A stretch of 16,783 bases of DNA. It comes from Bdellovibrionota bacterium (GTDB lineage: Bacteria > Bdellovibrionota_C > UBA2361 > JBGSMV01). Under the pieces are notes generated by a model. It had not been told where the DNA came from and made no database searches. It worked only from the letters and a program-made list of their open reading frames with translations. The translations under genes and the position numbers were made by a program. Numbering within the stretch: position 1 is the stretch's first letter; every line of letters starts with the position of its first letter. The stretch lies in NCBI GenBank assembly GCA_044356455.1, contig JBIKWF010000102.1, positions 1 through 16,783 on the forward strand, read 5' to 3'. Positions 3,109 to 16,783 of this stretch are shown here, piece by piece.

Positions 3109-3116
3109 TTTCCCCG

Positions 3117-3918
3117 GTAGGGCGCTCTGTCCCGCCTATAGGTAGGGCGCGCCGTTCCGCCTCTGCCAGTAGGCGACGGCGAGACGCGCGCCCCGGCGTG
3201 CCGAAAGATCTCGCGGCCCATCTCAATTGGTTCCGATTTGCCACCACGCGGTGAGCCGAAAGATCATGCGGCGCCCTGGGGACAGGACGCCCTACCAAGA
3301 TGTCTCGCCAATGGGCAGGGCGCGCCGTTCCGCCTCTGCCAGTAGGCGACGGCAAGAAACGCGCCCTGGCGTGCCGAAAGATCCCCCGGCCCATCCCAAT
3401 TGGTTCCGATTTGCCACCACGGGGCAGGCCGAAAGATCATGCGGCACCGCGGGGACGCGGCGCCCTACCAAGATGTCTCGCCAATGGGCAGGGCGCGCCG
3501 TTCCGCCTCTGCCAGTAGGCGACGGCAAGAAACGCGCCCTGGCGTGCCCCAGAATATCCCGTTCCATCTAAACTGGTTCCGATATGTTGCCTAAGAGGCA
3601 GCTTGAAAGATCATGCGGCACCGCGAGGACGCGGCGCCCTTCCAAGATGCTTCGCCTATGGGTAGGGCGCGCCGTCCCCGGCGTGCCGAAAGATCCCCCG
3701 GCCCATCCCAATTGGTTCCGATTTGCCACCACGGGGCAGGCCGAAAGATCATGCGGCACCGCGGGGACGCGGCGCCCTACCAAGATGCTTCGCCTATGGG
3801 TAGGGCGCCCTGTCCCCAGGGCGCCGAGAGATCTCCCGATCCCTACCAAATGGTTTCGATTTGCAACCGCGGTGTAGGTAGAAAGATCACGCGGCGTCCT
3901 GGGGACAGGACGCCCTAC
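3117..3918. repeat. Tandem array of five inverted REP doublets (BIME/REPIN-like, GTAG family)
   Basis: Forward copies start at 3142, 3315, 3488, 3662 and 3800 (periods 173, 173, 174, 138). Reverse copies are at 3269-3295, 3442-3468, 3616-3642, 3754-3780 and 3892-3918. Core is GTAG + 9-bp stem + TCCC loop + stem + G, e.g. GTAG-GGCGCCCTG-TCCC-CAGGGCGCC-G at 3800-3826. A truncated copy is at 3117-3133. Confidence 0.92.
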
Positions 3919-3926
3919 CGGATCCC

Positions 3927-4499
3927 TCAGCGCCCCAATACCCTGTCTAGCCTCCGGGATATTCGAAGGCGCGTCGCTTTTTTCGTGAGATAGTCCTTCT
4001 CCACCTCAGTCATTTCGACTTCGGAGAGTATTGACCTCGCATCTTCAAGGTCGAGCGCAGAGCCGGCATAAAGCTTAAGTAGCACCAGCGCCTTCCAGTC
4101 AGCGATGGGAATCTGTGTGCCATCAATATCGATGTCGCTCAGATCGTAGAGCGCAATTTCCTCCCATGCGGGAGGGAGTAGCACCAGTTGAATTGGAACA
4201 ACTCCAGTATTGTCATCCCTCGTGGCATTATCCTCCACGTAGGCTCTTTGGGAATACTCAATCACCCCGAGCAGTGGATCTCCAAGGTTGCCTTGCTTCC
4301 ATTGGCCACTAAGTTCTATGGCAAGCTCATGTGCAGAGAGACTTCCAAGCCGAAATACATAGTCAATGTCGGCGGTTGCTCGTGGTCTTGCCCATCGAGA
4401 AACGGCGAATGCCCCGATGAGCGCAAATGCAGAGATCTTTTCTTGCTCCTTTAGGTGACGAAGGTGGCTAGAAGAATCGAAGAGCGCGTTTTTAAACAT
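3927..4499 (-). CDS. Pol-beta-superfamily nucleotidyltransferase (AbiEii/DUF1814/DUF6036-like), putative TA or defence component
   Basis: Motif LIGAFAVSRWARPRATADIDY (G-x-x-A...PR-x-T-x-DID) and C-terminal LVLLKLYAGSALDLEDARSIL. It lies downstream of an HTH gene on the same strand. Confidence 0.75.
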   Translation of the reverse strand: MFKNALFDSSSHLRHLKEQEKISAFALIGAFAVSRWARPRATADIDYVFRLGSLSAHELAIELSGQWKQGNLGDPLLGVIEYSQRAYVEDNATRDDNTGVVPIQLVLLPPAWEEIALYDLSDIDIDGTQIPIADWKALVLLKLYAGSALDLEDARSILSEVEMTEVEKDYLTKKATRLRISRRLDRVLGR

Positions 4500-4553
4500 G
4501 GAGTAAAAGAGAAAATTTATTTCCTGCGTTAGTCTGGTTGTGCCTCACGGGAA

Positions 4554-5000
4554 TTATCCCGCATTGCTACGTGCTCGAGGGCTCTTCCCAATCTTCATTC
4601 CAAGGTCTGCTAAGGCGCACGCCTGGAGTATTCGAGCGGAGGGCGCGAGAGCGCGCGCGAGAAGTAAGTTTCGCTGCTCGGAGGTATCGTTGACCGAGCG
4701 AGTTCGCCTCGTAACCTTGGTTCGTGAGCCCCGGCGAAGTCCCGAGTAGGTGCCTCTAGAGCGCCGACGTTTGGGTGGAGCAGAGAATTCATATGAGAAC
4801 GAGCAACCAAGCGCCTGCGCTATTTTCTCAAGCGACTTTATGGTGATCGCCCCACGCAGTTCTGCTTGCTCGAATCGTAGGGCAGTTGATTGAGTAACGC
4901 CTAAAAGGTGCGCCAATTGAGAGCTACTTAGCCCGGCATGCCGGCGCAGCTCTTTGATAGATGGCAAGCGTGCCTTTGCGGATTGGTGGCGGTTCCTCAT
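4554..5000 (-). CDS. XRE-family HTH regulator resembling 'mobile mystery protein A', with a basic linker and short C-terminal helix; probable partner of the downstream NTase
   Basis: IKELRRHAGLSSSQLAHLLGVTQSTALRFEQAELRGAITIKSLEKIAQALGCSFSYEF matches the XRE HTH / mobile mystery protein A pattern. Confidence 0.75.
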   Translation of the reverse strand: MRNRHQSAKARLPSIKELRRHAGLSSSQLAHLLGVTQSTALRFEQAELRGAITIKSLEKIAQALGCSFSYEFSAPPKRRRSRGTYSGLRRGSRTKVTRRTRSVNDTSEQRNLLLARALAPSARILQACALADLGMKIGKSPRARSNAG

Positions 5001-5001
5001 T

Positions 5002-5033
5002 TATATATGATGCATGATAAAGCATCATATATA
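5002..5033. promoter_or_regulatory. 12-bp perfect inverted repeat, probable operator overlapping the promoter of the XRE-NTase operon
   Basis: TATATATGATGC (5002-5013), 8-nt spacer, GCATCATATATA (5022-5033). It starts 1 nt before the minus-strand ATG at 5000, with no Shine-Dalgarno. Confidence 0.7.
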
Positions 5034-5129
5034 CAAGTTAAATGTGGAGAGACGATATTTTATGTATTAATTTAAGTAAGTTGGGCGCGGTGCCCCATTT
5101 AAGCGTAAATGCGGTGTGGTATGCGAATA

Positions 5130-5164
5130 TTGACAGAAAGACCAGATCCGACCAGACTATATTC
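5130..5164 (+). promoter_or_regulatory. Sigma70-like promoter for phd-vapC with a direct-repeat operator candidate
   Basis: TTGACA (5130-5135), 17 nt, CAGACT (5153-5158), 6 nt, ATG 5165. GACCAGA direct repeats at 5140-5146 and 5150-5156. Confidence 0.55.
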
Positions 5165-5419
5165 ATGGTAATGAAGAATATCTCCGAAGTGAAAGCCCAG
5201 CTTTCCTCACTCCTGGGGCGCGTCGCGAAGGGGGAAGTAATCGTTATTGGAAAAGCCGGAAAGCCGGTAGCCAAGATTGTTGCATTTGGGGGCATCGAGA
5301 AAACAAGAAAGCCAGGTGCACTTAAGGGGAAAATTAAAATAGCAGCGGACTTTGCGGAGCTTCCAGAGGACATCGCGGCGGCCTTTGGGGTTGCTGACGA
5401 CAAAACTCCCGCGAAGTAG
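5165..5419 (+). CDS. Phd/YefM-family antitoxin (VapB role)
   Basis: MVMKNISEVKAQLSSLLGRVAKGEVIVIGKAGKPVAKIV...RKPGALKGKIKIAADFAELPEDIAAAF is a typical Phd/YefM sequence. The ORF-track start at 5042 is probably over-extended; ATG 5165 fits the family N-terminus. Confidence 0.9.
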   Translation: MVMKNISEVKAQLSSLLGRVAKGEVIVIGKAGKPVAKIVAFGGIEKTRKPGALKGKIKIAADFAELPEDIAAAFGVADDKTPAK

Positions 5420-5421
5420 CC

Positions 5422-5802
5422 ATGACGAAATTTTTACTAGACACGCATGCACTGCTTTGGTGGCTCACGGATGATGCTCAATTAAGGTCAGATGCCCGTG
5501 CGGTGATTTCATCAAATGAAAACTTAATTGCCTACAGCGCTGCCTCTATTTGGGAGATCAGAATTAAAGAGGGGCTCGGTAAGATTTCTCTTCCGCCTAA
5601 ATTTGCCGAGGTCTTGCAAGGCGAATCTATGGAAGAGATTCCTGTGAGGGCGGTTCATGCCCATGAGCTTATCCGATTGCCTCTTCTGCACCGCGATCCC
5701 TTTGATCGCATTTTCGTTGCTCAGGCGCGTATTGAAGGGGCGACTCTTATCACAAGAGACAGGACCCTTGAGCGCTACGGGATTTCGGTGCTTGAGGCGT
5801 AA
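5422..5802 (+). CDS. vapC: PIN-domain toxin VapC
   Basis: LLDTHALLWW, SAASIWEIRIK, HRDPFDRIFVAQA and LITRD carry the conserved PIN acidic residues. It starts 2 nt after the antitoxin stop. Confidence 0.93.
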   Translation: MTKFLLDTHALLWWLTDDAQLRSDARAVISSNENLIAYSAASIWEIRIKEGLGKISLPPKFAEVLQGESMEEIPVRAVHAHELIRLPLLHRDPFDRIFVAQARIEGATLITRDRTLERYGISVLEA

Positions 5803-5971
5803 GGAGAAGGGCTGCTGAAGAGAGCCGAAAGTGGAGTGCGGAAGAGGGAGTAGTTTCAGCTACTTAGTCTCTTTAAACGACCCCGTGCCGCTAGAGTCAC
5901 GAATGCATCATACTTATCCATAACCTCTACGGATAATTCGTAGTCGAAAAAGGTTTTTTGGATTCCTCTCC

Positions 5972-6823
5972 ATGCAGGCGCAAAAATCCGGCCAAAAACT
6001 TCTCCTCGCGAGCGCATTTGCTTTCTTTGCGATGCCGAGTCTTCTTCACGCCGAAAATCCGAATCAGTCTAACGAGCCTCCTGCCATTCAAGTCTCGCAG
6101 GAAGTAATCGCCGACTTCGCGCGCATGTTTAAGGTCAGCCCCGATAACCCCGAGCTCCAGGAAACCTTTCGGCAGCTCAACGAGTCCTTGCGCCAGAGCG
6201 CCGCAGGCGCTGAGCCTGAAAACAAGAACCGCACCTATAATCCGAATTCCGGCCTTCAGCGCGATAGGCAGAGCCTAGGACTCCAGATGGCGCGCACCGT
6301 CGTTGCGCGGCACTACCGCTTTGAAAGCGGGATTCCGTTTCAAGAAGCGCCGCGTGAGATGCTTGGGCCTGAGGAGCAGGCATCGACCAAAGGCGCGGTA
6401 TCTTACTTCCAAGGACAAATGCGTGCTTCGGTTAACGCAGCAAAAAATACGCCGCCTCTTCCTCGCTGCGCAGAGAATGCGGTCGACCACTCCAAGGTAG
6501 ATTCTGGGGACCAAGAGTTTGATAAAGAGCGCGTCAGCGATTTTCTTTTTCTACGGGGAGCTGAGCCGTCCAATTCAGCGGCACTTTTTGGCCGGGGTGT
6601 AACGGTCATTTCGTGCGGGGCGCAGGCTGGAGATCGCTGCGCGCTATCAGCCGGCTTACTTAACCTGCGCTGTCTTCCTACGAGGCTGCGTATGAGCAAA
6701 GGAAAAGCAACTCGAATAGAAGGCAAGAACGCTCTTGCAAATTTTGACCAAGGAGGCGCGGGAAAGCTTACGCCGGAAGTTGCCGCTCAGCTTGAGGTGT
6801 TCATGGGAGAAGTAGTGAAATGA
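5972..6823 (+). CDS. Exported protein, possibly a divergent TraW-like pilus assembly protein
   Basis: N-terminal signal peptide (KLLLASAFAFFAMPSLLHA). C-terminal FLFLRGAEP...LLNLRCLPTRLRM resembles the TraW pattern LFF.NGDDP...LGI..VPARV. ATGA overlap with the next gene. Confidence 0.4.
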   Translation: MQAQKSGQKLLLASAFAFFAMPSLLHAENPNQSNEPPAIQVSQEVIADFARMFKVSPDNPELQETFRQLNESLRQSAAGAEPENKNRTYNPNSGLQRDRQSLGLQMARTVVARHYRFESGIPFQEAPREMLGPEEQASTKGAVSYFQGQMRASVNAAKNTPPLPRCAENAVDHSKVDSGDQEFDKERVSDFLFLRGAEPSNSAALFGRGVTVISCGAQAGDRCALSAGLLNLRCLPTRLRMSKGKATRIEGKNALANFDQGGAGKLTPEVAAQLEVFMGEVVK

Positions 6824-8643
6824 GACGTCAAGTAACGTTCCTCCTTATAGGAGTCCTTACTCTCTCCTTACTCGCGCAGGCTGCGCACGCGGGGCCTCCT
6901 TCGAATTCGTCCTCGGAAGACTACGAAAAGTGGGTGAAGGACCAGTATCTTCCAAGTCGCCAAGGGGAGGCGGGGCGCGTCGAGGATGAGATAAAAGACA
7001 AAGTGCAAGGATGGGCCGCAGGAACCGAGGAGCCTACGAATTGGCGTGGGACTACTGAAGCGAAAGCTCAGGAGAATGCGGAGTGGGATGAATTGCACAT
7101 CAAGGATAGCCAATTTAAATCTTGTAATGACCAGCGAATCACGATTTGGGGAGATCCCGAGCGTCGTCCACCGCGGCCTTGCCAAGAGGAGCAAGGTTTT
7201 TTTGATAAACCTAATGCTATCTCATTCATGTGCCCCTTTGGCATCTTTGAAAATGCCTGTGGGAGCGATCGAGAAACTGGTTTTGAGCTAGGCTTATTGT
7301 GTGCGAGCGACCCAGGCGCTTGCGGCGTGCATTACGATAATAAGCACCCTGGTATGGCGGGCGTGATTGGGATTGGAATCATCTCCAAGGTTAAGGCGCC
7401 TCCCTTTTCGCCCTGCACCTATATCTACGTCACTGGAACCTATGTCGAGTATTATTTCCCCTGGATGATGCTCAACACCTCGCGGCAGATGTATCAGTCG
7501 AGTTATCTAGTTGAAGATGTCAGCGAGGAGCTGCGTCAAACAGGGCAAGACAGACTCCGTCTTCTTGCTGCAATAGAGACTGGCGCCACCGTTGATTTGG
7601 TTGCCCAGTCTGGGAATAACACTGTAAAAGCGCTCCTTGGGAATAAGGTCGGTGACGCCTTGCCCGCAGCGAATCCGGAAAGGAACAAAGCGGCTAAGGA
7701 ATCAGCGGATGCACTTCAGAACATTGACGACAAGTTCCGCGATATCTCTCCTCACGGCTCGCGCCAGTACACCCGCAACTTTTCCGCAGTGACTGACATT
7801 CGGTTCCAGCAATCAGTCTATTGGTATGTGCCGCACTACCCCCTTGACACCCATAGGTTTGGCACTGAGTTTCCCGACCTTGCAACTCCGATCGATATTC
7901 CCATGCCGACGGGAACTTATGAGTCGCTAGAACTGTCTCCGATGGGCGGCGGCTCAGGTGGGCAGTATCGCGGAGGGCTTCTTCATAGCCGCTTTCTCTC
8001 AATGTCTGATAAGACCGGAGGCAATCTTAAGGCAAACGTCCAAAAACTCATCGCAGCGCGCGGCGCCACAAGGTGTATAGGCAACAACAAGGCCTCCGGT
8101 AAAACCCCTCAAGATTTCTTGACTATGCTTGCCGCAGGAAAAGATCCTGATAAGTTCTGTATCGATAAGATAGGACCGCGGTTTCCTCTCATGTCCCTGA
8201 GTTTCTCGCCCCACGATACCGATGCATTCTGGCGCGGGATTCTAAGCGGTGGGCTCGACCTCTTTTATGCGCTCAATTGGCCTCCCGTTTACGGCGCAGA
8301 CAGGGGGCTTGTGCAGGCCATGGCAACCATTCCGCCTTTTGGGCAGTATCCTTTCCACACCTATTTCGATGACTACGACCGCGTAGCGCTCTCGCCTAAC
8401 CCGGAGAGTTCAGACCCGAATTTCGCGAACGAGATTACGCAATGCGGAAGAATTCAAGACATCGCCGACTATAACGTTAATTACGCACGCTCCAATATTC
8501 ATAAGCCACTCTGGGGTGCGCAAAATACCGTCTATGTGTATGGTCTGGTGAAAGGGATTTGGGCCTTTAGGGGCCAGCGAGGCTTATACACCATTGAAAA
8601 TGGGCAAACTCGTTATCCCGATATCGACTTTAGATGGCGGTAA
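6820..8643 (+). CDS. Cys-rich exported protein, TraU-like
   Basis: Signal peptide and several Cys residues. GTYVEYYFPWMMLNTSRQ resembles the TraU G..V.(F/Y)WEP..L.EV.R motif, and CIDKIGPRFPL resembles the TraU C...G.LYPL motif. It is longer than typical TraU. Confidence 0.5.
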   Translation: MRRQVTFLLIGVLTLSLLAQAAHAGPPSNSSSEDYEKWVKDQYLPSRQGEAGRVEDEIKDKVQGWAAGTEEPTNWRGTTEAKAQENAEWDELHIKDSQFKSCNDQRITIWGDPERRPPRPCQEEQGFFDKPNAISFMCPFGIFENACGSDRETGFELGLLCASDPGACGVHYDNKHPGMAGVIGIGIISKVKAPPFSPCTYIYVTGTYVEYYFPWMMLNTSRQMYQSSYLVEDVSEELRQTGQDRLRLLAAIETGATVDLVAQSGNNTVKALLGNKVGDALPAANPERNKAAKESADALQNIDDKFRDISPHGSRQYTRNFSAVTDIRFQQSVYWYVPHYPLDTHRFGTEFPDLATPIDIPMPTGTYESLELSPMGGGSGGQYRGGLLHSRFLSMSDKTGGNLKANVQKLIAARGATRCIGNNKASGKTPQDFLTMLAAGKDPDKFCIDKIGPRFPLMSLSFSPHDTDAFWRGILSGGLDLFYALNWPPVYGADRGLVQAMATIPPFGQYPFHTYFDDYDRVALSPNPESSDPNFANEITQCGRIQDIADYNVNYARSNIHKPLWGAQNTVYVYGLVKGIWAFRGQRGLYTIENGQTRYPDIDFRWR

Positions 8644-9110
8644 CGGTGCTTCTCAGCTCTCAGGAAAGTAAATTCGTTTCAAGGAAGTCCATTGAGCGGC
8701 TCTGCGGAGTCCTCTGCCTCGCTTTGGCAATGGTGTTAGGCAATGCGGCGTACCCCAATCTTCTGCATGCAGACCCTTACGCGAGGCCAGACTCTTTCTT
8801 CGAAAAAGACTATCTCAATAAAGATCGTGAAATATCCTCCGAAGAAAGCAAAGGAAACGAGCCGAGGGATTCCGGTCGCTCTAGTGAAGATAGTTTTGAA
8901 AAGAAGCCTGATTCCTGGGAAGCCCCGCGTAGGAATATGCCAGAGCAGTCCGTTGCCGGCAGCGACCGTGTGCGTGAATATCGAGATGGAACAGGGCGCT
9001 TCGCCTCTTCTTCCTCCTCATCCGCTCCCTACGCCATTCCAGGATCTAATGCGAAAGCAATTCCACTTCCCGGTGTAGGAGTTCTGGTACTTCCTGGAGC
9101 AACGGAATAG
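8634..9110 (+). CDS. Hypothetical exported, low-complexity charged/Ser-rich protein
   Basis: Hydrophobic segment LCGVLCLALAMVLGNAA followed by a polar disordered region. It overlaps the upstream gene by 10 nt and ends 2 nt before the next. The start is uncertain. Confidence 0.6.
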   Translation: MAVTVLLSSQESKFVSRKSIERLCGVLCLALAMVLGNAAYPNLLHADPYARPDSFFEKDYLNKDREISSEESKGNEPRDSGRSSEDSFEKKPDSWEAPRRNMPEQSVAGSDRVREYRDGTGRFASSSSSSAPYAIPGSNAKAIPLPGVGVLVLPGATE

Positions 9111-9112
9111 CG

Positions 9113-9757
9113 ATGAGACCCCAAGGCTTGCCTCTGATTGTCAGCGCGTTATGCACGACACTCGCTTGTGCGACACTAACTCTTGCGCAAGGACTTCCAG
9201 AGCCAAAACAGTTCTACAATCAAGGGTACGTAAACGACCCTCGCGCAAGTCCAGCTCCAGATGCGACCCCCACCCCGCGAGAGGCAGCACTTCAGGACCC
9301 TTCTTCTAGTCTCGCAGACCCCGCCACGGGAACTCAGGCACCTGAGGAGACCCCGGTTTCAAAGGAAACCCCGATTGTTTCCGAATACGCAGAAGGGGAG
9401 GGCGAAAAACCTCGTGCGGTGAGCCTGCTCCTTAGCACTGCTGACCCGGAGCTTCTCAAGAAACACTATGGGGAGTTAGTGCAGCTCTCAGAAAAATCCG
9501 GCTTTAAGCTAAAAGATCTGTTTCTTGTAGGAGACCCCAAGAGTCTCCCCTCAAAGGGCCTGTACTCCGAGCTCACCAAAGGCGGCAGCAAAATGGTGCT
9601 GCGCTTTGTTCCGCGCATTCCAAAGGAATTCGGTGAGATCAAAAGCTCTCCTGCACTTCTCGTCGAGACTTCGACGGGAGTAGTGGTAGTCGAAGGTTAT
9701 CCCTCACTCGGAAAAGTCTTCTCGGCAGATGGCCGCTTCATAGAACCGACCAGGTAG
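9113..9757 (+). CDS. Exported protein, TrbC(F-type)-like thioredoxin-fold fragment
   Basis: Signal peptide, then a Pro/Glu-rich linker, then VPRIPKEFGEIKSSPALLVETSTGVVVVEGYPSL, which resembles the TrbC IDP.LF..Y.I..VPA.V...V.G.VSL motif. The stop TAG (9755-9757) is part of a REP GTAG. Confidence 0.45.
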   Translation: MRPQGLPLIVSALCTTLACATLTLAQGLPEPKQFYNQGYVNDPRASPAPDATPTPREAALQDPSSSLADPATGTQAPEETPVSKETPIVSEYAEGEGEKPRAVSLLLSTADPELLKKHYGELVQLSEKSGFKLKDLFLVGDPKSLPSKGLYSELTKGGSKMVLRFVPRIPKEFGEIKSSPALLVETSTGVVVVEGYPSLGKVFSADGRFIEPTR

Positions 9758-10136
9758 GGCGCCGGGTTCCGCCTCTGTCAATCTCGTCCCCAGCTTCCTC
9801 GCGTGCGAGGGGTAGGGGGCGGCGCAAGATCTTCCGACCTGGCGCGCTCGTGGCGCTCAAGAATCAACCAACGAAAGTTGCAAGATCGTTCGGCGCCCTG
9901 GGGACAGGACGCCCTACCCATAGGCGAGACATCTTGGTAGGGCGCCGCGTCCCCGCGGTGCCGCATGATCTTTCAGCCTGCCCCGTGGTGGCGAATCGGA
10001 ACCAGTTGGAATGGGCCGAGAGATAATTCGGCACACCGAGGTGCTTCTCGCCGTCGCCTACCGGCAAATGCGGAACGGCGCGCCCTACCCATAGGCGAGG
10101 CATCTTGGGGTAGGGCGCCGCGTCCCCGCGGTGCCG
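9754..10136. repeat. Second REP cluster, same family as 3117-3918, with the unit in opposite orientation
   Basis: Truncated copy from 9754 (GTAGGGCGCCGGGTTCCGCCTCTG), reverse copy 9891-9917, forward 9937-9963, expanded reverse copy 10029-10088, forward 10110-10136. It shares the 65-nt spacer and the 19-nt linker (9918-9936) of the first array. Confidence 0.9.
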
Positions 10137-10292
10137 AACGATCTCCCAACCTCCAAAAGTAACATGCGATTCCGCCCAGTCGTTAGATTAGCCCGGATAC
10201 TGAGTGCGAGCGGGGAAGGGTAGGGAGTGCCCACAAAACTTATAGAAAAGCAGGGCCTTACCCATACCTAAGGCCAGAACAAGGGCGCAGTG

Positions 10293-10361
10293 AGGTGCAG
10301 TTATATGTGATATAAGCACTAAATATTGCACCTATTTCTTTATAAGAGTAATCTATCTGAT
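10293..10361 (+). promoter_or_regulatory. Sigma70-like promoter of the MNT-HEPN operon with inverted repeats
   Basis: TTGCAC (10326-10331), 17 nt, TAATCT (10349-10354), 7 nt, ATG 10362. Inverted repeats AGGTGCA (10293-10299)/TGCACCT (10327-10333) and TTATAT (10301-10306)/ATATAA (10310-10315). Confidence 0.55.
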
Positions 10362-10967
10362 ATGTACCTCGGCTACCGCCTAGACCCCGAAAAATTCCGC
10401 CTCGCCCTTGCGGCGCGTGGATACTCCACGACCGCGGCGCTACTTAAAGCTGCGGGCTTACACCGCAACTCGCTTAACGAATATCTTGCGGGCCGAAAGA
10501 GCGTCTTTTCCTCCGTTACCGAAAAAATTAGCGCGGCCCTCGACTGCGACCCGCTATCCCTGCTCTCGGGACATGAGCAGCTGGTAAGTGTCGATTCAAC
10601 CGGAGCTGCGCTTCAGCGCATACTCGAACGAGTGAGCGCAGAGCATCCTCATGTTGCTTTCTTTCTTATCGGCTCACGCGCAAAGGGAAGTCATCAGAAG
10701 TTTTCGGATTGGGATGTGGCGATTTCCGGCGGACGCTCCGCGCTCTCAACAGACGAATATCTTGCGATTAAATCTAAAATCGAAGATGGCGTCGAAGATC
10801 TCTCGGTAGGGGTCGATGTGGTAAACTTCGATGGCGCACCACCCTGGTTTATCGCAGGAATTACCTACGAGCCGCGCTTTCTCGCCGGAGATGAACGCGC
10901 ATTTTCATATGTTCTTGGAGTGATAGATGGAGCACGTAAGGCTACAAAAGATATCGAAAGCCGCTAA
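10362..10967 (+). CDS. HTH-fused minimal nucleotidyltransferase (MntA-like antitoxin)
   Basis: N-terminal HTH (LAARGYSTTAALLKAAGLHRNSLNEYLAG...EKISAALDCDP) and MNT motif IGSRAKGSHQKFSDWDVAI (GS-x10-DxD) plus VDVV. The start is placed at ATG 10362 because the track's TTG 10326 coincides with the -35 box. Confidence 0.85.
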   Translation: MYLGYRLDPEKFRLALAARGYSTTAALLKAAGLHRNSLNEYLAGRKSVFSSVTEKISAALDCDPLSLLSGHEQLVSVDSTGAALQRILERVSAEHPHVAFFLIGSRAKGSHQKFSDWDVAISGGRSALSTDEYLAIKSKIEDGVEDLSVGVDVVNFDGAPPWFIAGITYEPRFLAGDERAFSYVLGVIDGARKATKDIESR

Positions 10968-11298
10968 AAATCTCGAGTCTGCGCTCGAGCTTTACGCCAA
11001 TCGTCGTAAGACCGATGAGATTCCATTTCTTGCCGTTTGCAAGACCGTTGAGGTCTTAATGGAGTATCTGTGGAAGGAGTTTAAATCGCGCGTAGAAGCC
11101 GAGGGCCTCTTTGCCGCCTCTCCCAAAGAGGCTGTGCGTCAGGCGGCGGCAATCGGGCTCATAGATGAGCCAGATAAGTGGATAGCGATTGTGCTCGCCA
11201 GGAATGATTCCGTGCACGATTATTTTGGAATTCCGGAAACAGAATACGTTCGCCTAGCCCACGATCTCGTCCAGCGTAGTAAGCGCATCGAATGGTAG
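10927..11298 (+). CDS. HEPN-domain protein (HI0074 / nucleotidyltransferase substrate-binding family; HepT-like RNase toxin)
   Basis: EYLWK...SPKEAVRQAAAIGLI...W...ARNDSVHDY contains the R-x4-H-x-Y HEPN motif. It overlaps the MNT gene by 41 nt. Its stop TAG (11296-11298) belongs to a REP GTAG. Confidence 0.88.
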   Translation: MEHVRLQKISKAAKNLESALELYANRRKTDEIPFLAVCKTVEVLMEYLWKEFKSRVEAEGLFAASPKEAVRQAAAIGLIDEPDKWIAIVLARNDSVHDYFGIPETEYVRLAHDLVQRSKRIEW

Positions 11299-11400
11299 GG
11301 CGTCCTGTCCCCAGGGCGCCGCAAGATCTTTCAACCTGCCTCGTGGCGGCAATTGGGAGCCAATTGGGATGGGCCGGAAGATCTTTCGTCACGCCGGGGC
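11295..11400. repeat. REP copy with conserved 65-nt spacer and degenerate partner
   Basis: GTAG-GGCGTCCTG-TCCC-CAGGGCGCC-G at 11295-11321. The spacer is the reverse complement of the first-array spacer type. A partial partner CGTCACGCCGGGG starts at 11387. Confidence 0.85.
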
Positions 11401-11500
11401 GAGACAAGCCCAGAGGTGCCGCAATATCGACCAACCCAACCACTGCAGTAACGCAGCACGACCGCATCTGAAGTTGAAATAATCCTACGTCGCTGTCATC

Positions 11501-12058
11501 TCAATTTTCAGCGCGAAGCCTTTTTAATAGTTCCTCAACTCCGAGGAGAGCAGCTCTTTGGTTTAGGTAGTCTAGATCCAGTTTTTTCTCGCATCTCTTA
11601 AGCATTGCCTTAACATCATGCCGGCTCTTGTCGCTGCCTTTGGAAATCCAGATGAGCTTTGAAAGTAGTGCATCCTCGACGGAGACCATCGGTACAACAA
11701 CTCCCGCAAGGATCTCTTCGCTACGACTCCTTTCTAGCTCGCCGCCGATAGCCTCGCCCACATGAAAATCAACCTTGATCATCGTCACTTCGTGAAGTGC
11801 TTGAAAAATGCTCATACGCCGGACTGCGTCTTCAATGGCACTGCGATCCACAATAAATTTTCGTGAAAGGTCGTCAGCCAATTGATTAAGAGAATCACTA
11901 AGGCCGATCTTGATGACGATATCTATGTCTTGGGTAAATCTTGGCTCCCCATAGAACGAAGAGGCAAGTCCGCCGGTAAGATGAAACTTACACTGCCTCC
12001 CGAGTAGCACGGCCGAAACATCAGCCAGGGTTATTTTGAGATCGTTTGAGTCTATCAA
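11501..12058 (-). CDS. Pol-beta-superfamily nucleotidyltransferase (AbiEii/DUF6036-like), second module
   Basis: HLTGGLASSFYGEPRFTQDIDIV, KVDF, and SVEDALLSKLIW...SDKSRHDV. The TTG start overlaps the upstream TGA (TTGA coupling at 12055-12058). Confidence 0.78.
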   Translation of the reverse strand: MIDSNDLKITLADVSAVLLGRQCKFHLTGGLASSFYGEPRFTQDIDIVIKIGLSDSLNQLADDLSRKFIVDRSAIEDAVRRMSIFQALHEVTMIKVDFHVGEAIGGELERSRSEEILAGVVVPMVSVEDALLSKLIWISKGSDKSRHDVKAMLKRCEKKLDLDYLNQRAALLGVEELLKRLRAEN

Positions 12059-12285
12059 TCTACGCTAACCCTCTTCAAAAGCTCCTGCGTTCCTTTATCC
12101 AAGAGGTATAGCCGCTCGGCCACCTTTCTTCTTGTTTCGCGATCACTCAAATTAGAGAATTCCCTTGAGATCTGAAGTGTCAACATCTCGCACATGGAGC
12201 CAAACAACGAAAAGGTCCGCTCAATACGCTCTCGTCCGGTCATCCGATCAAGGGCTTCATTGTACTTTTGTTCTATTAGAGACAT
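12055..12285 (-). CDS. Small helical protein, upstream partner of the nucleotidyltransferase
   Basis: 76-aa MSLIEQKYNEALDRMTGRERIERTFSL...LSDRETRRKVAERLY, with GAGGGA upstream of ATG 12285. The track's extension to 12435 is translated REP sequence. Confidence 0.72.
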   Translation of the reverse strand: MSLIEQKYNEALDRMTGRERIERTFSLFGSMCEMLTLQISREFSNLSDRETRRKVAERLYLLDKGTQELLKRVSVD

Positions 12286-12335
12286 TTGAATTCCCTCAGA
12301 CGATCTAAAGCCTACCACAGTCGTTACGCGTGTAG

Positions 12336-12420
12336 GTAGGGCGTCCTGTCCCCAGGGCGCCGCAAGATCTTTCAATCTGCCTCGTGGCGGTAAATCGGAC
12401 CCAATTGGAATGCGCCCAAA
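12336..12420. repeat. Single REP copy plus most of the conserved spacer
   Basis: GTAG-GGCGTCCTG-TCCC-CAGGGCGCC-G at 12336-12362, followed by CAAGATCTTTCAATCTGCCTCGTGGCGG..., nearly the same as the sequence from 11322 onward. Confidence 0.85.
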
Positions 12421-12452
12421 GCTCTCGTAATCCAAAACCAGGTTGGCTCATA

Positions 12453-12470
12453 TCATATATCACTATATGA
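12453..12470. promoter_or_regulatory. Inverted repeat upstream of the RHH gene, candidate operator
   Basis: TCATATA (12453-12459), TCAC, TATATGA (12464-12470), ending 8 nt before ATG 12479. Confidence 0.5.
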
Positions 12471-12478
12471 AATCATTC

Positions 12479-12730
12479 ATGAGAACGATAATCGAACTAC
12501 CTAAAGAATTAGCCAAGAGCCTTGATCTCTATCGCAAGAGTAAGGGTATTTCGCGGACCGAAGCGATTCGCCGTGCCATACAGCAGTATTTGGAGCAACT
12601 TACAGAGCCTGCCTCCGACGAAGCCTTTGGACTGTGGAAAGCGAAGGTTGGCGACGGTTTGCGATACGAAAGATCTGTGCGCGGGGAGTGGGGGAGTAGC
12701 AAGGTTACGCCGCCATCTTCGACATGGTGA
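12479..12730 (+). CDS. CopG/ribbon-helix-helix antitoxin (VapB-like), with no downstream toxin
   Basis: MRTIIELPKELAKSLDLYRKSKGISRTEAIRRAIQQYL...EAFGLWKAKVGDGLRYERSVRGEW. Its 3' end runs into the convergent higA-like gene. Confidence 0.8.
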   Translation: MRTIIELPKELAKSLDLYRKSKGISRTEAIRRAIQQYLEQLTEPASDEAFGLWKAKVGDGLRYERSVRGEWGSSKVTPPSSTW

Positions 12731-12989
12731 TCTTATAGCGGTAACCAAGCCCTTGAATAATACGTAAAAAGATATCAAAGCTTGTGCGGTTAAGTTTTAT
12801 GCCCGCCTCGATCTGCGCGATTCGGGACCGAGAGACCCCGACGCGCTCCGCAAGCTGTGCCTGGCTAAGTCCGCTTTTGCTTCGAATCTTGATGATTATA
12901 TCGCGTAGCCTCAGTTTCTGATCTATCTCATTGATGTCGACATCGAGCGCATCTGCCAACTCAGGGAGCGTTACTTTCTTCCAAGCCAT
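12705..12989 (-). CDS. higA: XRE-family HTH antitoxin (HigA-like)
   Basis: IIKIRSKSGLSQAQLAERVGVSRSRIAQIEAG. It starts 3 nt after the RelE-like toxin stop (toxin-first order). Confidence 0.82.
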   Translation of the reverse strand: MAWKKVTLPELADALDVDINEIDQKLRLRDIIIKIRSKSGLSQAQLAERVGVSRSRIAQIEAGIKLNRTSFDIFLRIIQGLGYRYKITMSKMAA

Positions 12990-12992
12990 ATT

Positions 12993-13340
12993 CTATCCTC
13001 TAAATTTTAAGCAAATTTCGCCGATTCGTTTTAAAATCAGGCTCCGATCCTTCTCGCTTATAGTTGCCCCCTTCTTTCTGAGACCGTGGAGTAGAAAGAT
13101 GGAGCCCTTTATCTTCGTATAATAGAAAACTCGAACATGGCCCTGGGCGTCTCTGACTCGGATTTCATAGAGCCCATGCGCCATAGTCGCCATACTTCGG
13201 ACGTGAGGCATCGTGACTTGCTCGCCGCCTTCAATCCGGCGGAGTAGTGTTAAGATTTCAAAGCGAGTCTCAGCAGGAAGCTCCTGCAAGAATTCTCTCA
13301 CAGGCTCCCGCCCGCCTGTGGTGTAGTAGAAGATGTTCAC
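12993..13340 (-). CDS. higB: RelE/ParE-superfamily toxin (HigB / Gp49-DUF891-like)
   Basis: FYYTTGGREPVREFL...MPHVRSM...GLYEIRV...RVFY...LLHGLRKK. GTG start. Confidence 0.88.
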   Translation of the reverse strand: MNIFYYTTGGREPVREFLQELPAETRFEILTLLRRIEGGEQVTMPHVRSMATMAHGLYEIRVRDAQGHVRVFYYTKIKGSIFLLHGLRKKGATISEKDRSLILKRIGEICLKFRG

Positions 13341-13376
13341 AACTCTATGTTAGCTACAACTAACACATGCCGTCAA
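13341..13376 (-). promoter_or_regulatory. Sigma70-like promoter and operator of higBA
   Basis: On the minus strand: TTGACG (13376-13371), 18 nt, TAACAT (13352-13347), 6 nt, GTG 13340. Inverted repeat TGTTAG (13348-13353)/CTAACA (13360-13365) overlaps the -10 box. Confidence 0.65.
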
Positions 13377-13451
13377 TCGGAAGTTGTGTTGCGGATTTCG
13401 AGGGTGGCGCCCCCAGCAGATAAGCCCGAATATAAGCCGTTCAGTGCGCTG

Positions 13452-13560
13452 GTGGGGCGTCCTGTCCCCAGGGCGCCGCCATATCTAGCGATCATCCCTT
13501 CCGAATCCCCCAACCTGCCAGCCCCATTAAATTCGGCGTCCTGAGGACAGGACGCCTTAC
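13452..13560. repeat. Diverged inverted REP doublet
   Basis: GTGG-GGCGTCCTG-TCCC-CAGGGCGCC-G (13452-13478) and a reverse copy at 13534-13560 (minus strand GTAA-GGCGTCCTG-TCCT-CAGGACGCC-G), with a 55-nt spacer. Confidence 0.82.
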
Positions 13561-13679
13561 CTAACCAACTGATACTTAACAGATATTCCCCAAACAAATT
13601 AATCCTTCTCACGTCACATAAACCCCCAAACCCCGCATAACTCCCTTAGAACAATACTCATAACTGAGGCGGGAGTATT

Positions 13680-14870
13680 TTGAGACTTAAGGTTGGGCGG
13701 CACATGAAGGTTGGTTTGTTTATACTGGCAGCAGGCCTTGCGATGAGTCCTGCGCTTCTACTCGCAGAGGCTGAGAACCAAGCGCGCTTTTACGCGACGC
13801 AAGGTTCCGGATCTCCCATGAAAGGCTTCTTCAATAAGGGCAGCGCACGCACCGTGTTTAGCAACCCTGCCGGAGAAGAAGCGCGGGCGAGCATTCAATA
13901 TTTCCCAAGCAAAAAGCCAATTGAAGCAGAGGAAGAATTAGCGCCTGAGACTGCTCCAGAAGCTCAGCCCGCAAAACTCTCCCAGCCAGCTCAGGAAGCA
14001 AAAACAGAGCAAAAAGCCGCAAAAACAAAGGAAGAAAAGCGCGAAGAGCTTGTGAAAAATTACGGAGCTCCTGATGAAGAGGCTCCTGTGCAAGCTCAAG
14101 AAAATGCGCCAAAGCCTTTCCGGGCGATGATGGCGGCGCTGGAGACGGGGGATGATGAACTCGCCTACAAGTATGCTCGTCAGTACGTGCGCTACATGGG
14201 GCGCCTCCAGCAGAGAAGCACTCGTGTGGTAGGCCTCATGGGAACCGCCATGGAGCGTGAAGGCATGGTGGAGAAGGGCGCATGGCAAGCAGCCAAAGAA
14301 TTTGGAAGTGACCGGCAGTTCTTAGATGCCGAGCTTGCAGAAAATGCAGAGCGTGCCCCTGAGCAGCGTGAGCTCAACGAAGAAGCCTCAGCACTCCTTT
14401 CAAAGGCCCGTATGATGGAAGAGGGGGGCGAGGCACCTAAGGCTCCAAGTCAGCCCGCCCTCAACCCCGTCCAAGAACGCGCCCAAATACGCCAGCACCT
14501 TGCCCGCGAAGTTCCCGTTGATGCAGGCGTAAAGGTGCAGGTTTACTTCTTTTTTAAACCCCTTGATACGCAGTCCCAGAATATGGGCCGCGAGCTTCAG
14601 GGCATGTTTGCTAGTTCCCGCGGGCACTTAGACCTCATTGCGATGGCCCTAACCCCCATGTCCGACCAAGAAGAGAAAATCTTTAGAAGTCGTACGGGAG
14701 CCACGTACGCGATTAACCCAGACGGAAGCAATATTGCCCGAATGATGGAAGTACGTGGTGTGCCTTCAACTGTGCTCGTGTCCCCGCGCCTTAATAAGGC
14801 CTACGCGATTCAGGGAATGAGGAAGGCGCTGTTTGTGGATGAGGTGATTAAGATGATGGAGGGGCGATAA
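13680..14870 (+). CDS. Exported protein with C-terminal thioredoxin-like fold lacking CxxC, TraF-like
   Basis: Signal peptide (MKVGLFILAAGLAMSPALLLA; alternative ATG 13704). C-terminal VYFFFKPLDTQSQNM...LIAMAL...DGSNIARMMEVRGVPSTVLVSP...IQG matches the TraF/TrbB layout, with DTQS in place of CxxC. Confidence 0.55.
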   Translation: MRLKVGRHMKVGLFILAAGLAMSPALLLAEAENQARFYATQGSGSPMKGFFNKGSARTVFSNPAGEEARASIQYFPSKKPIEAEEELAPETAPEAQPAKLSQPAQEAKTEQKAAKTKEEKREELVKNYGAPDEEAPVQAQENAPKPFRAMMAALETGDDELAYKYARQYVRYMGRLQQRSTRVVGLMGTAMEREGMVEKGAWQAAKEFGSDRQFLDAELAENAERAPEQRELNEEASALLSKARMMEEGGEAPKAPSQPALNPVQERAQIRQHLAREVPVDAGVKVQVYFFFKPLDTQSQNMGRELQGMFASSRGHLDLIAMALTPMSDQEEKIFRSRTGATYAINPDGSNIARMMEVRGVPSTVLVSPRLNKAYAIQGMRKALFVDEVIKMMEGR

Positions 14871-14871
14871 C

Positions 14872-16602
14872 GTGCGGAAGATTACGCTCAATTTGTCCCT
14901 TCTGGCTGCGCTAGTAGTCAGTGCGAATCTCCTTTCAAACCATGGGAGCGAGGCACAGGCGCAAGCACTCCCTGGGAGCTCGGCTCCACCCGCCCCAGGT
15001 TTTGGCCAAATTGGTCAGGCAGATGGAGTTGCAGGCCAAAACAAAGCAAATGAGCCCACTACTTTGCCAAGCGATAGCGTGCTCTCCAGCAACTACGATG
15101 CTTCGGCTTCGGCCTTGATTACTAGGCCAACTGGAGAGAAAGAAGTCTCGTCAAACGGCTATAACTCACTCAATTCGGGAAGCACCAACAACACCCCCGT
15201 CGTGTATCAGGACCCAGAATCAGGGATTGCGAGCATCATGCAGGAGAATCAGTGGCGAAGAATGTCCACTAATCTTCTGAATAGTCCCCTCGCCTTAATG
15301 AACGTAACGTGGCAACTCACTGAGCCCGCTGTCGCGCAGGGTTTCGCAAACGCATTCCAACAGTCGGCATGGGTGAATCAACTAGCCTACGGAGGGCAGC
15401 AAGCCCTCATGGAGCAATACAAGCTTGGCGGAACCCAAGGATTTGCGCAGGCGGTTAGCATGCTCAATTGCATGAGAGTTGAAATTCTCAGACAGCAAAT
15501 GGCAAACGAGCCAGAGAACTGGCAGAAAGCGCGAATGCGTTGCCAAGGGGCCTATGACACGACGACACCCGCGGGTTCAGGAAGCGGTGTGGCCGCACAG
15601 GAAGCCAAAGTCGATGGTTCAGTGGCAGCATTGACAAGTGATCCTTCTCTTAATGTTGTCGATTGTAACCAGCTCGAAGAGCAGAGAAAGTCAGAAGAGA
15701 CTTTGCCCGCGGCGCAACGGAAAAAAGGCATCATGAGCTTTGTTGATGTGCGCTTACAGAATTTAAAGCCGGAAGAGCGCGCGAAGATTAAGGAAGAGGT
15801 TGGAGATATTATATATTCCTACACGCATGAGTTCTCTCAGGATGCCAGTAAGCCTGCTCGCGCGGTGCTTCTTGCCACATGTATTAAGCCTCCTACAACT
15901 CCCATTTGGGACCAAGCAAAGGCAATGGAACTTTCAATTTGGAAGCAGATTCTCGCGATGTTCAAAGCGCGTTGCATAGCGGCTGCGCAGGAGCGGGACA
16001 GGAGCAATGAATATGTTCCATTCGATCCTGCGAAGCGTAATAGCTTCTTGGAGAATTCGTCCCAGTTTATTGAGCCGCTCAGTTTTGACGAATTTAAATT
16101 TACGCCAAATCTTCTGGATATCACCTACAATCTTTTCATCTCTAAAGAGATTGAGGAGCTGAAGGAGTCAACCTGCAACGCCCGGCTAGATCCGGATGCT
16201 GAACGCAATGATCTTGAGAAGCTGAAAAAGGGACAGGTAAAGACTCGCTTGGAGCATCGCACGATTCACCAACTGGTGTTGTGGATAACTCAAGGCAAGA
16301 TATTTGAGCGGGCAGCGACTCGAGTGAAGGAGATAAATGCAACAAGCCAAGGCATGAATCGCCAGCTCGACGGAAGAGCCGCAATTGTCCCTGCAATGTA
16401 TTTCTTAGTAGCTCGCTCGGTGAATATGAATTCGTTGGAAGAGCTGTCGGATGCAATGCAGAAAAACTTGGCGCAGCTGAACGCTTTTAAGAGACAAATG
16501 GAAGACCAAGCGGCAATGGTCACCGGTAAAGGTGCGGATATTCTGCGCAGTCCGTTTGATGAATCAAATAAAGCGCCGAGCGCGGGCGGATACGGAAGTT
16601 AA
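14872..16602 (+). CDS. Large exported helical protein, possibly TraH / PFL_4711-like
   Basis: GTG start 1 nt after the previous stop, a signal peptide, scattered Cys residues and a C-terminal coiled coil. NLLNSPLALMNVTWQLTEPAVAQGFANAFQQ weakly resembles the TraH/PFL_4711 N-terminal segment. It directly follows the traF-like gene. Confidence 0.4.
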   Translation: MRKITLNLSLLAALVVSANLLSNHGSEAQAQALPGSSAPPAPGFGQIGQADGVAGQNKANEPTTLPSDSVLSSNYDASASALITRPTGEKEVSSNGYNSLNSGSTNNTPVVYQDPESGIASIMQENQWRRMSTNLLNSPLALMNVTWQLTEPAVAQGFANAFQQSAWVNQLAYGGQQALMEQYKLGGTQGFAQAVSMLNCMRVEILRQQMANEPENWQKARMRCQGAYDTTTPAGSGSGVAAQEAKVDGSVAALTSDPSLNVVDCNQLEEQRKSEETLPAAQRKKGIMSFVDVRLQNLKPEERAKIKEEVGDIIYSYTHEFSQDASKPARAVLLATCIKPPTTPIWDQAKAMELSIWKQILAMFKARCIAAAQERDRSNEYVPFDPAKRNSFLENSSQFIEPLSFDEFKFTPNLLDITYNLFISKEIEELKESTCNARLDPDAERNDLEKLKKGQVKTRLEHRTIHQLVLWITQGKIFERAATRVKEINATSQGMNRQLDGRAAIVPAMYFLVARSVNMNSLEELSDAMQKNLAQLNAFKRQMEDQAAMVTGKGADILRSPFDESNKAPSAGGYGS

Positions 16603-16617
16603 GAATTCAGGGGTTGT

Positions 16618-16783
16618 ATGGCGTTTGTAGAAGTATACCAACATCTGGTTCAGGCTCAGCAGGTTGGGGCTCCGATATTCCAATCTATCGAGCCAATGTC
16701 ATGCGCGTCGAACTGCTCATACTTTTTTGACGGCCAGCCTGGATGTCCGGGAAGTTCTTTTACCGCTATTGGAGCCGCTTTTG
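16618..16783 (+). CDS. 5' part of the next operon gene, truncated by the window edge; product unknown
   Basis: ATG 16618 follows CAGGGG and lies 15 nt after the previous stop. The frame is open to the end of the window: MAFVEVYQHLVQAQQVGAPIFQSIEPMSCASNCSYFFDGQPGCPGSSFTAIGAAF. Confidence 0.5.
   Translation, partial: MAFVEVYQHLVQAQQVGAPIFQSIEPMSCASNCSYFFDGQPGCPGSSFTAIGAAF

What the first reader, a model, noticed from the sequence alone, without database searches (positions are those of the whole stretch)
9754..13560. REP-delimited toxin-antitoxin cassette array: a possible integron-like gene capture system built on GTAG REPs
Seen in sequence: a strict alternation of REP cluster (9754-10136), HTH-MNT/HEPN, REP (11295-11400), small protein/NTase, REP (12336-12420), RHH + HigBA, and REP doublet (13452-13560). 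Every gene between the outer REPs is TA-type. Orientations are mixed. The flanking genes on both sides are co-directional, tightly coupled secreted-protein genes that look like one interrupted operon. A second REP array (3117-3918) directly abuts two further TA-type modules. Established: GTAG REPs are substrates of the RAYT/TnpA(REP) HUH nucleases, and TA modules accumulate in integron and pdif cassette arrays. Inference: here the REPs may act as cassette boundaries or insertion hotspots through which TA/defence modules are gained and lost, by a trans-acting RAYT or by recombination between REPs.
Basis: partly seen in the sequence, partly recalled or inferred. Interest (0 to 1): 0.85.

Follow-up and report, generated by a model that had tools for sequence, protein, structure and literature searches.

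The report
REP-decorated toxin-antitoxin hotspot, not integron
Three toxin-antitoxin-type gene pairs and a lone antitoxin sit at a chromosomal spot that also collects such genes in relatives lacking these short hairpin repeats (REPs), so the repeats between the genes are likely later, locally copied arrivals rather than a gene-capture machine, though two of them may have helped one module come or go.

Summary
The anatomy is real: four clusters of a GTAG REP punctuate HTH-MNT/HEPN, a small protein plus AbiEii-like NTase, an orphan RHH and HigBA between trbC-like and traF-like genes. The REP has 382 copies genome-wide, and a candidate RAYT lies on another contig.

The general capture-system reading fails. 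Outside this contig, TA genes are not enriched beside this REP (2 of 44 within 600 nt, background 7%). REP-bounded intervals mostly hold ordinary genes, and 21 copies supply a host gene's TAG stop. The junction is empty in seven relatives and carries TA genes in REP-less ones. Both tested modules occur REP-free at 20 other loci. There is no attC array, local integrase or shared orientation.

The locus is still special. All five clusters on the contig share a rare REP subtype. A sister lineage has different TA-like cargo split by an identical REP. A roughly 90% relative seems to lack the module between two direct copies (indirect evidence).

Verdict: an ordinary REP/RAYT system on a lineage-wide TA hotspot, with possible local REP-assisted turnover. 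This scan has noted similar REP-framed hotspots in other genomes.

The parts
3115..3919 (.). BIME-like REP array (about 11 copies) directly behind the gcvP stop; near-inverted copy of the 9752-10136 array
   Evidence: (I1: 159 nt, 91% complementary)
3927..4499 (-). short nucleotidyltransferase; no Pfam hit, but a member of the genome's short-NTase family in a local HMM
4554..5000 (-). Xre-type HTH protein (HTH_3; weak match to mobile mystery protein A)
5168..5802 (+). Phd/YefM antitoxin + PIN toxin pair, not REP-bounded
5972..9757 (+). conserved four-gene block of predicted secreted proteins; the last (9113-9757) is thioredoxin-fold/TrbC-like (a lead only) and its TAG stop is the GTAG of a REP
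   Evidence: sequence
9752..10136 (.). REP cluster of five copies in mixed orientation
10362..10967 (+). HTH-MNT (MntA-like adenylyltransferase antitoxin with N-terminal HTH)
10927..11298 (+). HEPN/NTase_sub_bind toxin-like protein, full length against homologues; its TAG stop is the GTAG of REP 11294
11294..11401 (+). REP (rare TCCT subtype) with spacer and a decayed second arm
11501..12058 (-). AbiEii-like short nucleotidyltransferase
12055..12288 (-). small partner protein, found beside the NTase in 9 of 9 other loci
12335..12425 (+). REP (TCCT subtype), direct repeat of 11294 (first 42 nt identical); its closest copy in the genome is 11294
12479..12730 (+). orphan RHH/CopG antitoxin-like gene, no toxin partner, 3' end variable among strains
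12705..13340 (-). HigB-type (Gp49/RelE) toxin 12993-13340 and HigA-type HTH antitoxin 12705-12989
13451..13561 (.). REPIN-like inverted REP doublet with degenerate GTAG ends; homology with the sister lineage begins at about its outer end
13680..14870 (+). TraF-like thioredoxin-fold protein, found in 83 of 124 genomes of the class; first gene of the right-hand block

Best explanation
The gap between a trbC-like and a traF-like gene collects toxin-antitoxin modules across this bacterial order with or without these repeats, and the GTAG REPs here are likely later arrivals, predicted to be spread to gene 3' ends by a RAYT elsewhere in the genome and then copied locally. Steps. (1) Shown: the junction is empty, TA-filled or otherwise filled in different relatives. 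(2) Shown: homologues of the two tested modules sit elsewhere without this REP; inferred: they arrive by ordinary horizontal transfer, each with its own promoter region. (3) Shown: the REP family is lineage-restricted, abundant and favours gene 3' ends, often overlapping a TAG stop. (4) Inferred: the C172 RAYT moves it. (5) Inferred from the shared rare subtype: copies in this contig descend from local copying or gene conversion. The REPs mark module ends mainly because those are free gene 3' ends in a dispensable stretch.
For: No TA enrichment beside this REP outside the contig: 2 of 44 hits within 600 nt against 320 of 4424 genes, p=0.83; 3 of 44 units within 300 nt against 247 of 3168, p=0.68. 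REP-flanking genes are not small-gene rich (median 297 aa against 260). Of 27 other intervals of at most 4 kb between REP clusters, 3 contain TA-type genes by my reading. 21 REP copies supply a gene's stop, mostly ordinary genes, and include the full-length HEPN here. Junction empty in G082, G081, G123, G023, G007, G031 and G015. Pfam TA domains lie within two genes upstream of traF-like in G024, G035, G021 and G012, 4 of 20 regions fetched and 3 genera; p about 0.015 for 3 of 17. None of those regions has this REP. HTH-MNT/HEPN at 11 other loci and the small+NTase pair at 9 other loci carry 0 copies. The RHH/HigBA junction has no REP. G019 has an unrelated palindrome family right behind the same gcvP and trbC-like stops.
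Against: Four of five gaps filled is far beyond background. All 5 clusters on this contig carry the TCCT subtype, against 15 of 155 elsewhere, while nearby clusters elsewhere share subtypes no more than distant ones (23 of 64 against 38%); plain decoration does not predict this. The sister lineage L052 has an identical, co-oriented REP between two different TA-like modules at this site, and homology with it starts at about the outer end of the last REP. A relative at 88-92% identity appears to hold MNT, HEPN and RHH but not the module between the direct repeats (inferred from a shared contig length only). Short-NTase modules outside the contig lie near REPs in 3 of 11 loci (p about 0.05, chosen after the fact). 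The relatives that carry the modules REP-free mostly lack the family altogether, so they show the REP is not needed, not that it is never used.
Confidence: 0.55

Rival explanations
1. The site is a hotspot in its own right, but in this lineage the co-oriented REP copies serve as short homology handles. Host recombination between them would delete or swap modules, or integrate a REP-carrying circle, at least for the small-protein/NTase module between 11294 and 12335.
For: 11294 and 12335 are direct repeats with 42 identical nt; 12335's best match genome-wide is 11294, and 12335 ranks third for 11294. Rare subtype in all clusters of the contig. The sister lineage has the same REP between other modules. 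An 8458-nt metagenome contig apparently has the flanking modules but no close NTase. REP effects on recombination and amplification are cited in bioRxiv 10.1101/2021.07.10.451892 (passage).
Against: 11294 is at least as similar to two copies on other contigs as to 12335 (scores 46 and 44 against 42), and the two differ at about a fifth of positions beyond the first 42 nt. No empty-site joint with unique flanks in six runs; the one joint that mimics loss of MNT/HEPN is matched 27-29 of 30 letters by REP pairs on other contigs. The DNA of the 8458-nt contig could not be read.
Confidence: 0.3
2. A RAYT-driven, integron-like capture system: the trans-acting HUH enzyme cuts single-stranded DNA at REPs and stacks or excises TA/defence cassettes genome-wide.
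For: An intact RAYT candidate with HUH, WQ..EH.IR and Y..NP motifs and this REP doublet 60 nt upstream. TnpA(REP) cleaves and strand-transfers at REPs in vitro (PMC8266576, passages). The local regularity, and the sister lineage's REP-split cargo.
Against: No genome-wide TA enrichment; REP-bounded intervals are mostly ordinary genes. The RAYT is on another contig. Two of the boundary REPs have lost the GTAG (13451 GTGG, 13561 GTAA), which published systems need for efficient cutting. Modules are in mixed orientation. The hotspot is older than the REP family. No circles seen (contigs only).
Confidence: 0.08
3. The pattern is chance plus assembly: a repeat-rich metagenome bin in which REP-bounded pieces were joined wrongly.
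For: The bin has 1228 intergenic repeat intervals and about a third of between-unit gaps carry some repeat. Unitigs break at the REPs and none listed bridges HEPN to REP 11294. One run of three REP-filled gaps is roughly what patchiness gives (12 of 123).
Against: Unitigs 11305-12364, 12346-13478 and 13449-16777 confirm most joins in X1, and the first two also in X2. Depth is even across the modules in X1. Divergent strains keep REP-RHH, RHH-HigA and doublet-traF joins. The HEPN stop and the REP share letters.
Confidence: 0.05

Closest known systems
REP/REPIN/BIME-RAYT (TnpA_REP, REPtron) systems; GTAG repeats of Di Nocera et al. 2013 (PMC3733652)
   Same: GTAG-footed stem-loop; hundreds of lineage-restricted copies as singlets, inverted doublets and arrays; bias to convergent and co-directional gaps; termini supplying TAG stops (described in that paper); one candidate RAYT with an adjacent doublet.
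   Different: A new sequence family in an uncultured lake bacterium; the RAYT has REPs on its 5' side only and scores just under the NCBIfam cut-off (74.4 against 80). One stretch shows local subtype homogeneity around TA modules.
Integron cassette arrays / CALINs rich in TA cassettes
   Same: Small TA modules separated by a repeated structured site at a variable locus.
   Different: No attC-type site between modules, no integrase at the locus, mixed orientation, and the separator occurs at 160 loci, mostly beside ordinary genes. The genome's real integron (IntI, contig C92) has a different site that does not match the window.
pdif / Xer-mobilised TA modules (features recalled)
   Same: Stacked TA modules with short boundary sites.
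   Different: No dif-like XerC/D site was found in the window with a recalled motif.
Chromosomal TA clusters and accessory-gene hotspots between conserved genes (recalled; search listing only)
   Same: A conserved junction with empty, TA-filled and otherwise filled alleles across relatives; decaying modules such as an orphan antitoxin.
   Different: Here the modules are additionally separated by one REP subtype.
IS110 elements that target REPs (ISPpu9, PMC12288879; search listing only)
   Same: A route by which REPs act as insertion targets and modules move as circles.
   Different: No IS110 transposase (PF02371) was found in this 93% complete bin.

Membership tests
GTAG REP / REPIN | GTAG tetranucleotide at the foot of a short stem-loop | tested here: met
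   GGTAG + 9-bp stem, 4-nt loop; degenerate in the 13451 doublet
GTAG REP / REPIN | high copy number, extragenic, lineage-restricted | tested here: met
   382 copies, null 1, 4 called genes overlapped; strict pattern 254 in G000, 1 in G023, 0 in the other 39 of 40 relatives
GTAG REP / REPIN | inverted doublets and composite arrays | tested here: met
   96 of 160 clusters have 2 or more copies; doublet folds at z -4.4 and -8.3
REPtron (RAYT + cognate REP) | HUH/Y1 transposase-like gene with RAYT motifs | tested here: met
   C172:33813-34268, 151 aa, open frame; NF047646 E 8e-21 at 74.4 bits, under the 80-bit cut-off; motif as in PMC6006769
REPtron (RAYT + cognate REP) | gene flanked by the cognate REP | tested here: inconclusive
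   doublet 60 nt upstream; next cluster downstream is about 2.8 kb away; 0 of 65 distant homologue loci (22-52% identity) carry this REP
REPtron (RAYT + cognate REP) | enzyme cleaves the single-stranded REP | not testable with these tools
   needs biochemistry
Integron / CALIN | integron integrase at the array | tested here: not met
   none in the window; the genome's IntI is on C92
Integron / CALIN | attC sites between cassettes | tested here: not met
   recalled core motif gives only matches at 13559-13698, outside the module junctions; the C92 site matches nothing in the window; Rfam 0 hits
Integron / CALIN | cassettes in one orientation | tested here: not met
   modules run +, -, +, -
Integron / CALIN | excised circles or empty sites at the repeat | tested here: inconclusive
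   contigs of six runs only, tables cut; no joint with unique flanks
pdif module array | XerC/D dif-like sites around modules | tested here: not met
   recalled dif motif, up to 2 mismatches, no hit in the window; the same scan found no dif site anywhere in the bin, so its sensitivity for this lineage is unknown
Accessory-gene / TA hotspot | conserved flanks with empty and differently filled alleles in relatives | tested here: met

The most novel reading that the evidence does not exclude
At a pre-existing TA hotspot, one REP subtype and its trans-acting RAYT act as a local cassette-stacking device. REP-carrying circles with a TA module integrate at a resident REP, leaving co-oriented copies on both sides, so that sister lineages build different TA arrays at the same site without any integrase.
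Probability: 0.12. Interest if true: 0.8.

Novelty: new member of a known kind. Interest (0 to 1): 0.33.

Why it matters
As it stands, this is a new REP family with a candidate RAYT in an uncultured lake bacterium, plus a junction that collects TA modules across a whole order. That is useful but unsurprising. What REP-RAYT systems do for their hosts is still open (PMC8266576 and bioRxiv 10.1101/2021.07.10.451892, passages). This locus gives a narrow, testable case: a module between two direct REP copies that one close relative appears to lack. If its loss or gain maps to the REP, it would be direct evidence that REPs shuffle accessory genes; if it depended on the RAYT, it would give the enzyme a function.

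Tried and rejected
Genome-wide TA-REP enrichment: negative in two designs. The TA set came from nine Pfam families and misses others, such as HicAB and MazEF. For one search I dropped four hits that did not look like TA genes (C12, C84, C101, C136) and added six short-NTase loci. Genes were called with my own script, which includes some false short ORFs.

'Any repeat family' next to TA units: no enrichment (21 of 44 against 51.5%).

'REPs fill most gaps': rejected (138 of 4208).

REP truncating the HEPN gene: rejected; the gene is full length.

tRNA as anchor of the hotspot: none in the window, and 3 of 30 related loci have one. dif and attC scans were negative. IS110 was not found. The REP pattern gave 0 hits in viral contigs.

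RHH relatives in genome contigs: none; only one non-self protein homologue.

No RNA holder was listed. Read joints between REP copies were traced to other REP loci for two joints. One joint (9971-11292, side 24 letters) was not traced and is too short to count. Twelve joints were not shown.

In G001 the junction could not be closed: ABC-efflux genes follow the trbC-like gene and the contig ends. PHROGs and NCBIfam gave no useful names for the flanking secreted proteins; trbC-like and traF-like rest on Atlas leads.

A first hotspot p-value (4 of 17, 0.0016) counted G117, whose pair has only an HTH hit. The stricter count is 3 of 17, p 0.015. The 17 leaves out two regions cut by contig ends and one of two same-genus genomes.

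Searches listed no paper on REP-delimited TA cassette arrays (listings and abstracts only; many subscription papers are not held).
Full report
Setting. The window is the whole contig C83 of a 4.7-Mb, 216-contig, 93% complete bin. Runs that hold it are lake-water metagenomes. I did not establish the organism's name.

Observation. Between the trbC-like gene (ends 9757) and the traF-like gene (starts 13680) lie HTH-MNT/HEPN (+), an AbiEii-like NTase with a small partner (-), an RHH gene (+) and a HigBA-type pair (-). REP clusters sit at 9752-10136, 11294, 12335 and 13451-13561. The names trbC-like and traF-like are leads from the ESM Atlas; Pfam and NCBIfam give none. Four of five between-unit gaps carry the REP, the densest stretch in the genome. 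The RHH/HigBA junction has none. The RHH lacks a toxin, and strains in runs X4 and X6 have a two-base insertion near its end, which suggests a decaying module.

The repeat. It is a GTAG-footed 9-bp hairpin with 382 copies in 160 clusters (null 1). It occupies 138 of 4208 intergenic spaces: 59 of 797 convergent, 60 of 2589 co-directional and 19 of 822 divergent. Forty-nine of 160 clusters lie within 15 nt of a stop codon, and 21 copies supply the TAG itself. Di Nocera et al. describe both habits for GTAG repeats (PMC3733652, passages). The strict pattern has 254 matches here, 1 in G023 and 0 in the other 39 of 40 relatives, including the same-genus G001. A 151-aa RAYT candidate on C172 has this doublet 60 nt upstream. 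It has no close homologue in 40 relatives (best E 2e-6), and none of 65 distant homologue loci carries this REP. That it moves the REP is inferred from the literature (PMC8266576, PMC6006769, PMC5581495, PMC3337134; passages).

The enrichment test. Nine Pfam families gave 52 hits, 44 outside C83. Two of 44 lie within 600 nt of a REP cluster, against 320 of 4424 genes (p 0.83). At transcription-unit level, with an edited set (see Tried and rejected), 3 of 44 against 247 of 3168 (p 0.68). Among 27 other intervals of at most 4 kb between clusters, three contain TA-type genes. The rest look like ordinary genes such as isocitrate dehydrogenase, Trp-tRNA synthetase, SSB and SmpB (my reading of the sequences). 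Of 102 short REP-flanking proteins outside C83, I read about four as TA-type. One sub-signal points the other way: short-NTase modules are within 400 nt of a REP in 3 of 11 outside loci (p about 0.05, chosen after the fact).

The site in relatives. The traF-like gene is found in 83 of 124 genomes of the class. I fetched 20 upstream regions, chosen across genera. In five the trbC-like gene is directly adjacent (83-238 nt), as it is in G031 and G015 from an earlier fetch. In four (G024, G035, G021, G012; three genera) Pfam TA domains lie within two genes, and G117 has an HTH-containing pair. Others hold an Ig-domain gene, a transporter, a PD-(D/E)XK gene or an IS. G019 has an AAA_14/DUF4143 ATPase there. 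None of these regions carries this REP. So the hotspot is older and wider than the REP family. The modules also travel without it: HTH-MNT/HEPN at 11 other loci and the small+NTase pair at 9, all in different contexts, with 0 copies.

What keeps the question open. All five clusters on C83 contain the rare TCCT subtype (15 of 155 clusters elsewhere; 7 of 14 copies against 20 of 307). The closest relative of 12335 is 11294, and the two large arrays are near-inverted copies of each other. Nearby clusters elsewhere do not share subtypes more than distant ones. The single metagenome locus recovered, L052 (79% aa at traF-like), has different cargo at the site: an AAA_14/DUF4143 ATPase, an identical co-oriented REP, a small protein with a DUF6036-like NTase, and a second repeat family. 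Its homology with the window starts at about the outer end of the last REP, although non-coding homology would fade about there anyway. Proteins 92%, 88% and 89% identical to MNT, HEPN and RHH all come from a contig of 8458 nt. No NTase homologue above 78% exists outside the window's own cluster at near-full length, and none of the 120 listed hits or nine expanded clusters is on a contig of that length. If that is one contig of this locus, it lacks the module between the direct repeats. I could not read its DNA.

Reads. Contigs of six runs show the modules at even depth in X1 and the same neighbours in divergent strains. They show no empty-site or circle joint with unique flanks. Two joints between REP copies were traced to other REP loci, one short joint was not, and the tables were cut. 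Contigs drop rare variants, so this is weak.

Membership. It is a GTAG REP/REPIN family with a probable RAYT. It is not an integron: no attC between modules, no local integrase, mixed orientation. The genome's real integron is on C92 and uses another site. It resembles an integron only in layout.

Verdict. Most likely an order-wide TA landing site later decorated by locally copied REPs (0.55). REP-assisted recombination of at least one module is a serious rival (0.30). A RAYT-driven capture system is unlikely in its general form (0.08). Earlier unchecked notes of this scan describe similar REP-framed hotspots in other genomes. Supplements of the cited papers were not read; their lists of REP families could show whether this sequence family is already catalogued.

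Noticed in passing
G000:C191:1564-6378 (L155), C146:6735-11502, C78:26474-27364, C79:40221-40589, C209:10355: A second palindromic repeat family (63 copies) does sit beside TA modules: 5 of 44 TA units against 28 of 3168 (p 7e-5, three contigs, chosen after the fact). On C191 it separates three TA blocks next to a 324-aa Y1/HUH transposase.
   Followed up: partly
G000:C92:1-2959 (L150): A true integron integrase (TIGR02249, 428 bits) with cassettes and attC-like sites beside it.
   Followed up: partly
window 5972-9757 and 13680-16602: Order-wide conserved chromosomal cluster of Cys-rich and thioredoxin-fold secreted proteins resembling F-type pilus assembly genes (TraF-like by the Atlas), usually next to gcvP and unnamed in Pfam, NCBIfam and PHROGs.
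   Followed up: partly
whole bin: Extreme load of intergenic repeats: 1228 intervals, 194 kb, several families, one with about 660 motif copies.
   Followed up: no
window 3109-5971; L031:6500-13280: The gcvP-to-block junction is a second variable site: TA-type modules here, about 7 kb of other genes in G001, empty or short in others.
   Followed up: partly
L034:3896-3964 and 7344-7396 (G019): An unrelated palindrome family sits right behind the same gcvP and trbC-like stop codons that carry REP arrays in the window.
   Followed up: no
G000:C172:32116-34467 (L154): The RAYT itself lies in a TA-rich patch: BrnA, a BrnT fragment and a split short NTase gene.
   Followed up: partly
G000:C106:625-3491: A dense TA cluster (HigBA-type, Phd and PIN-like genes by my reading) with no repeat of any family.
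   Followed up: no
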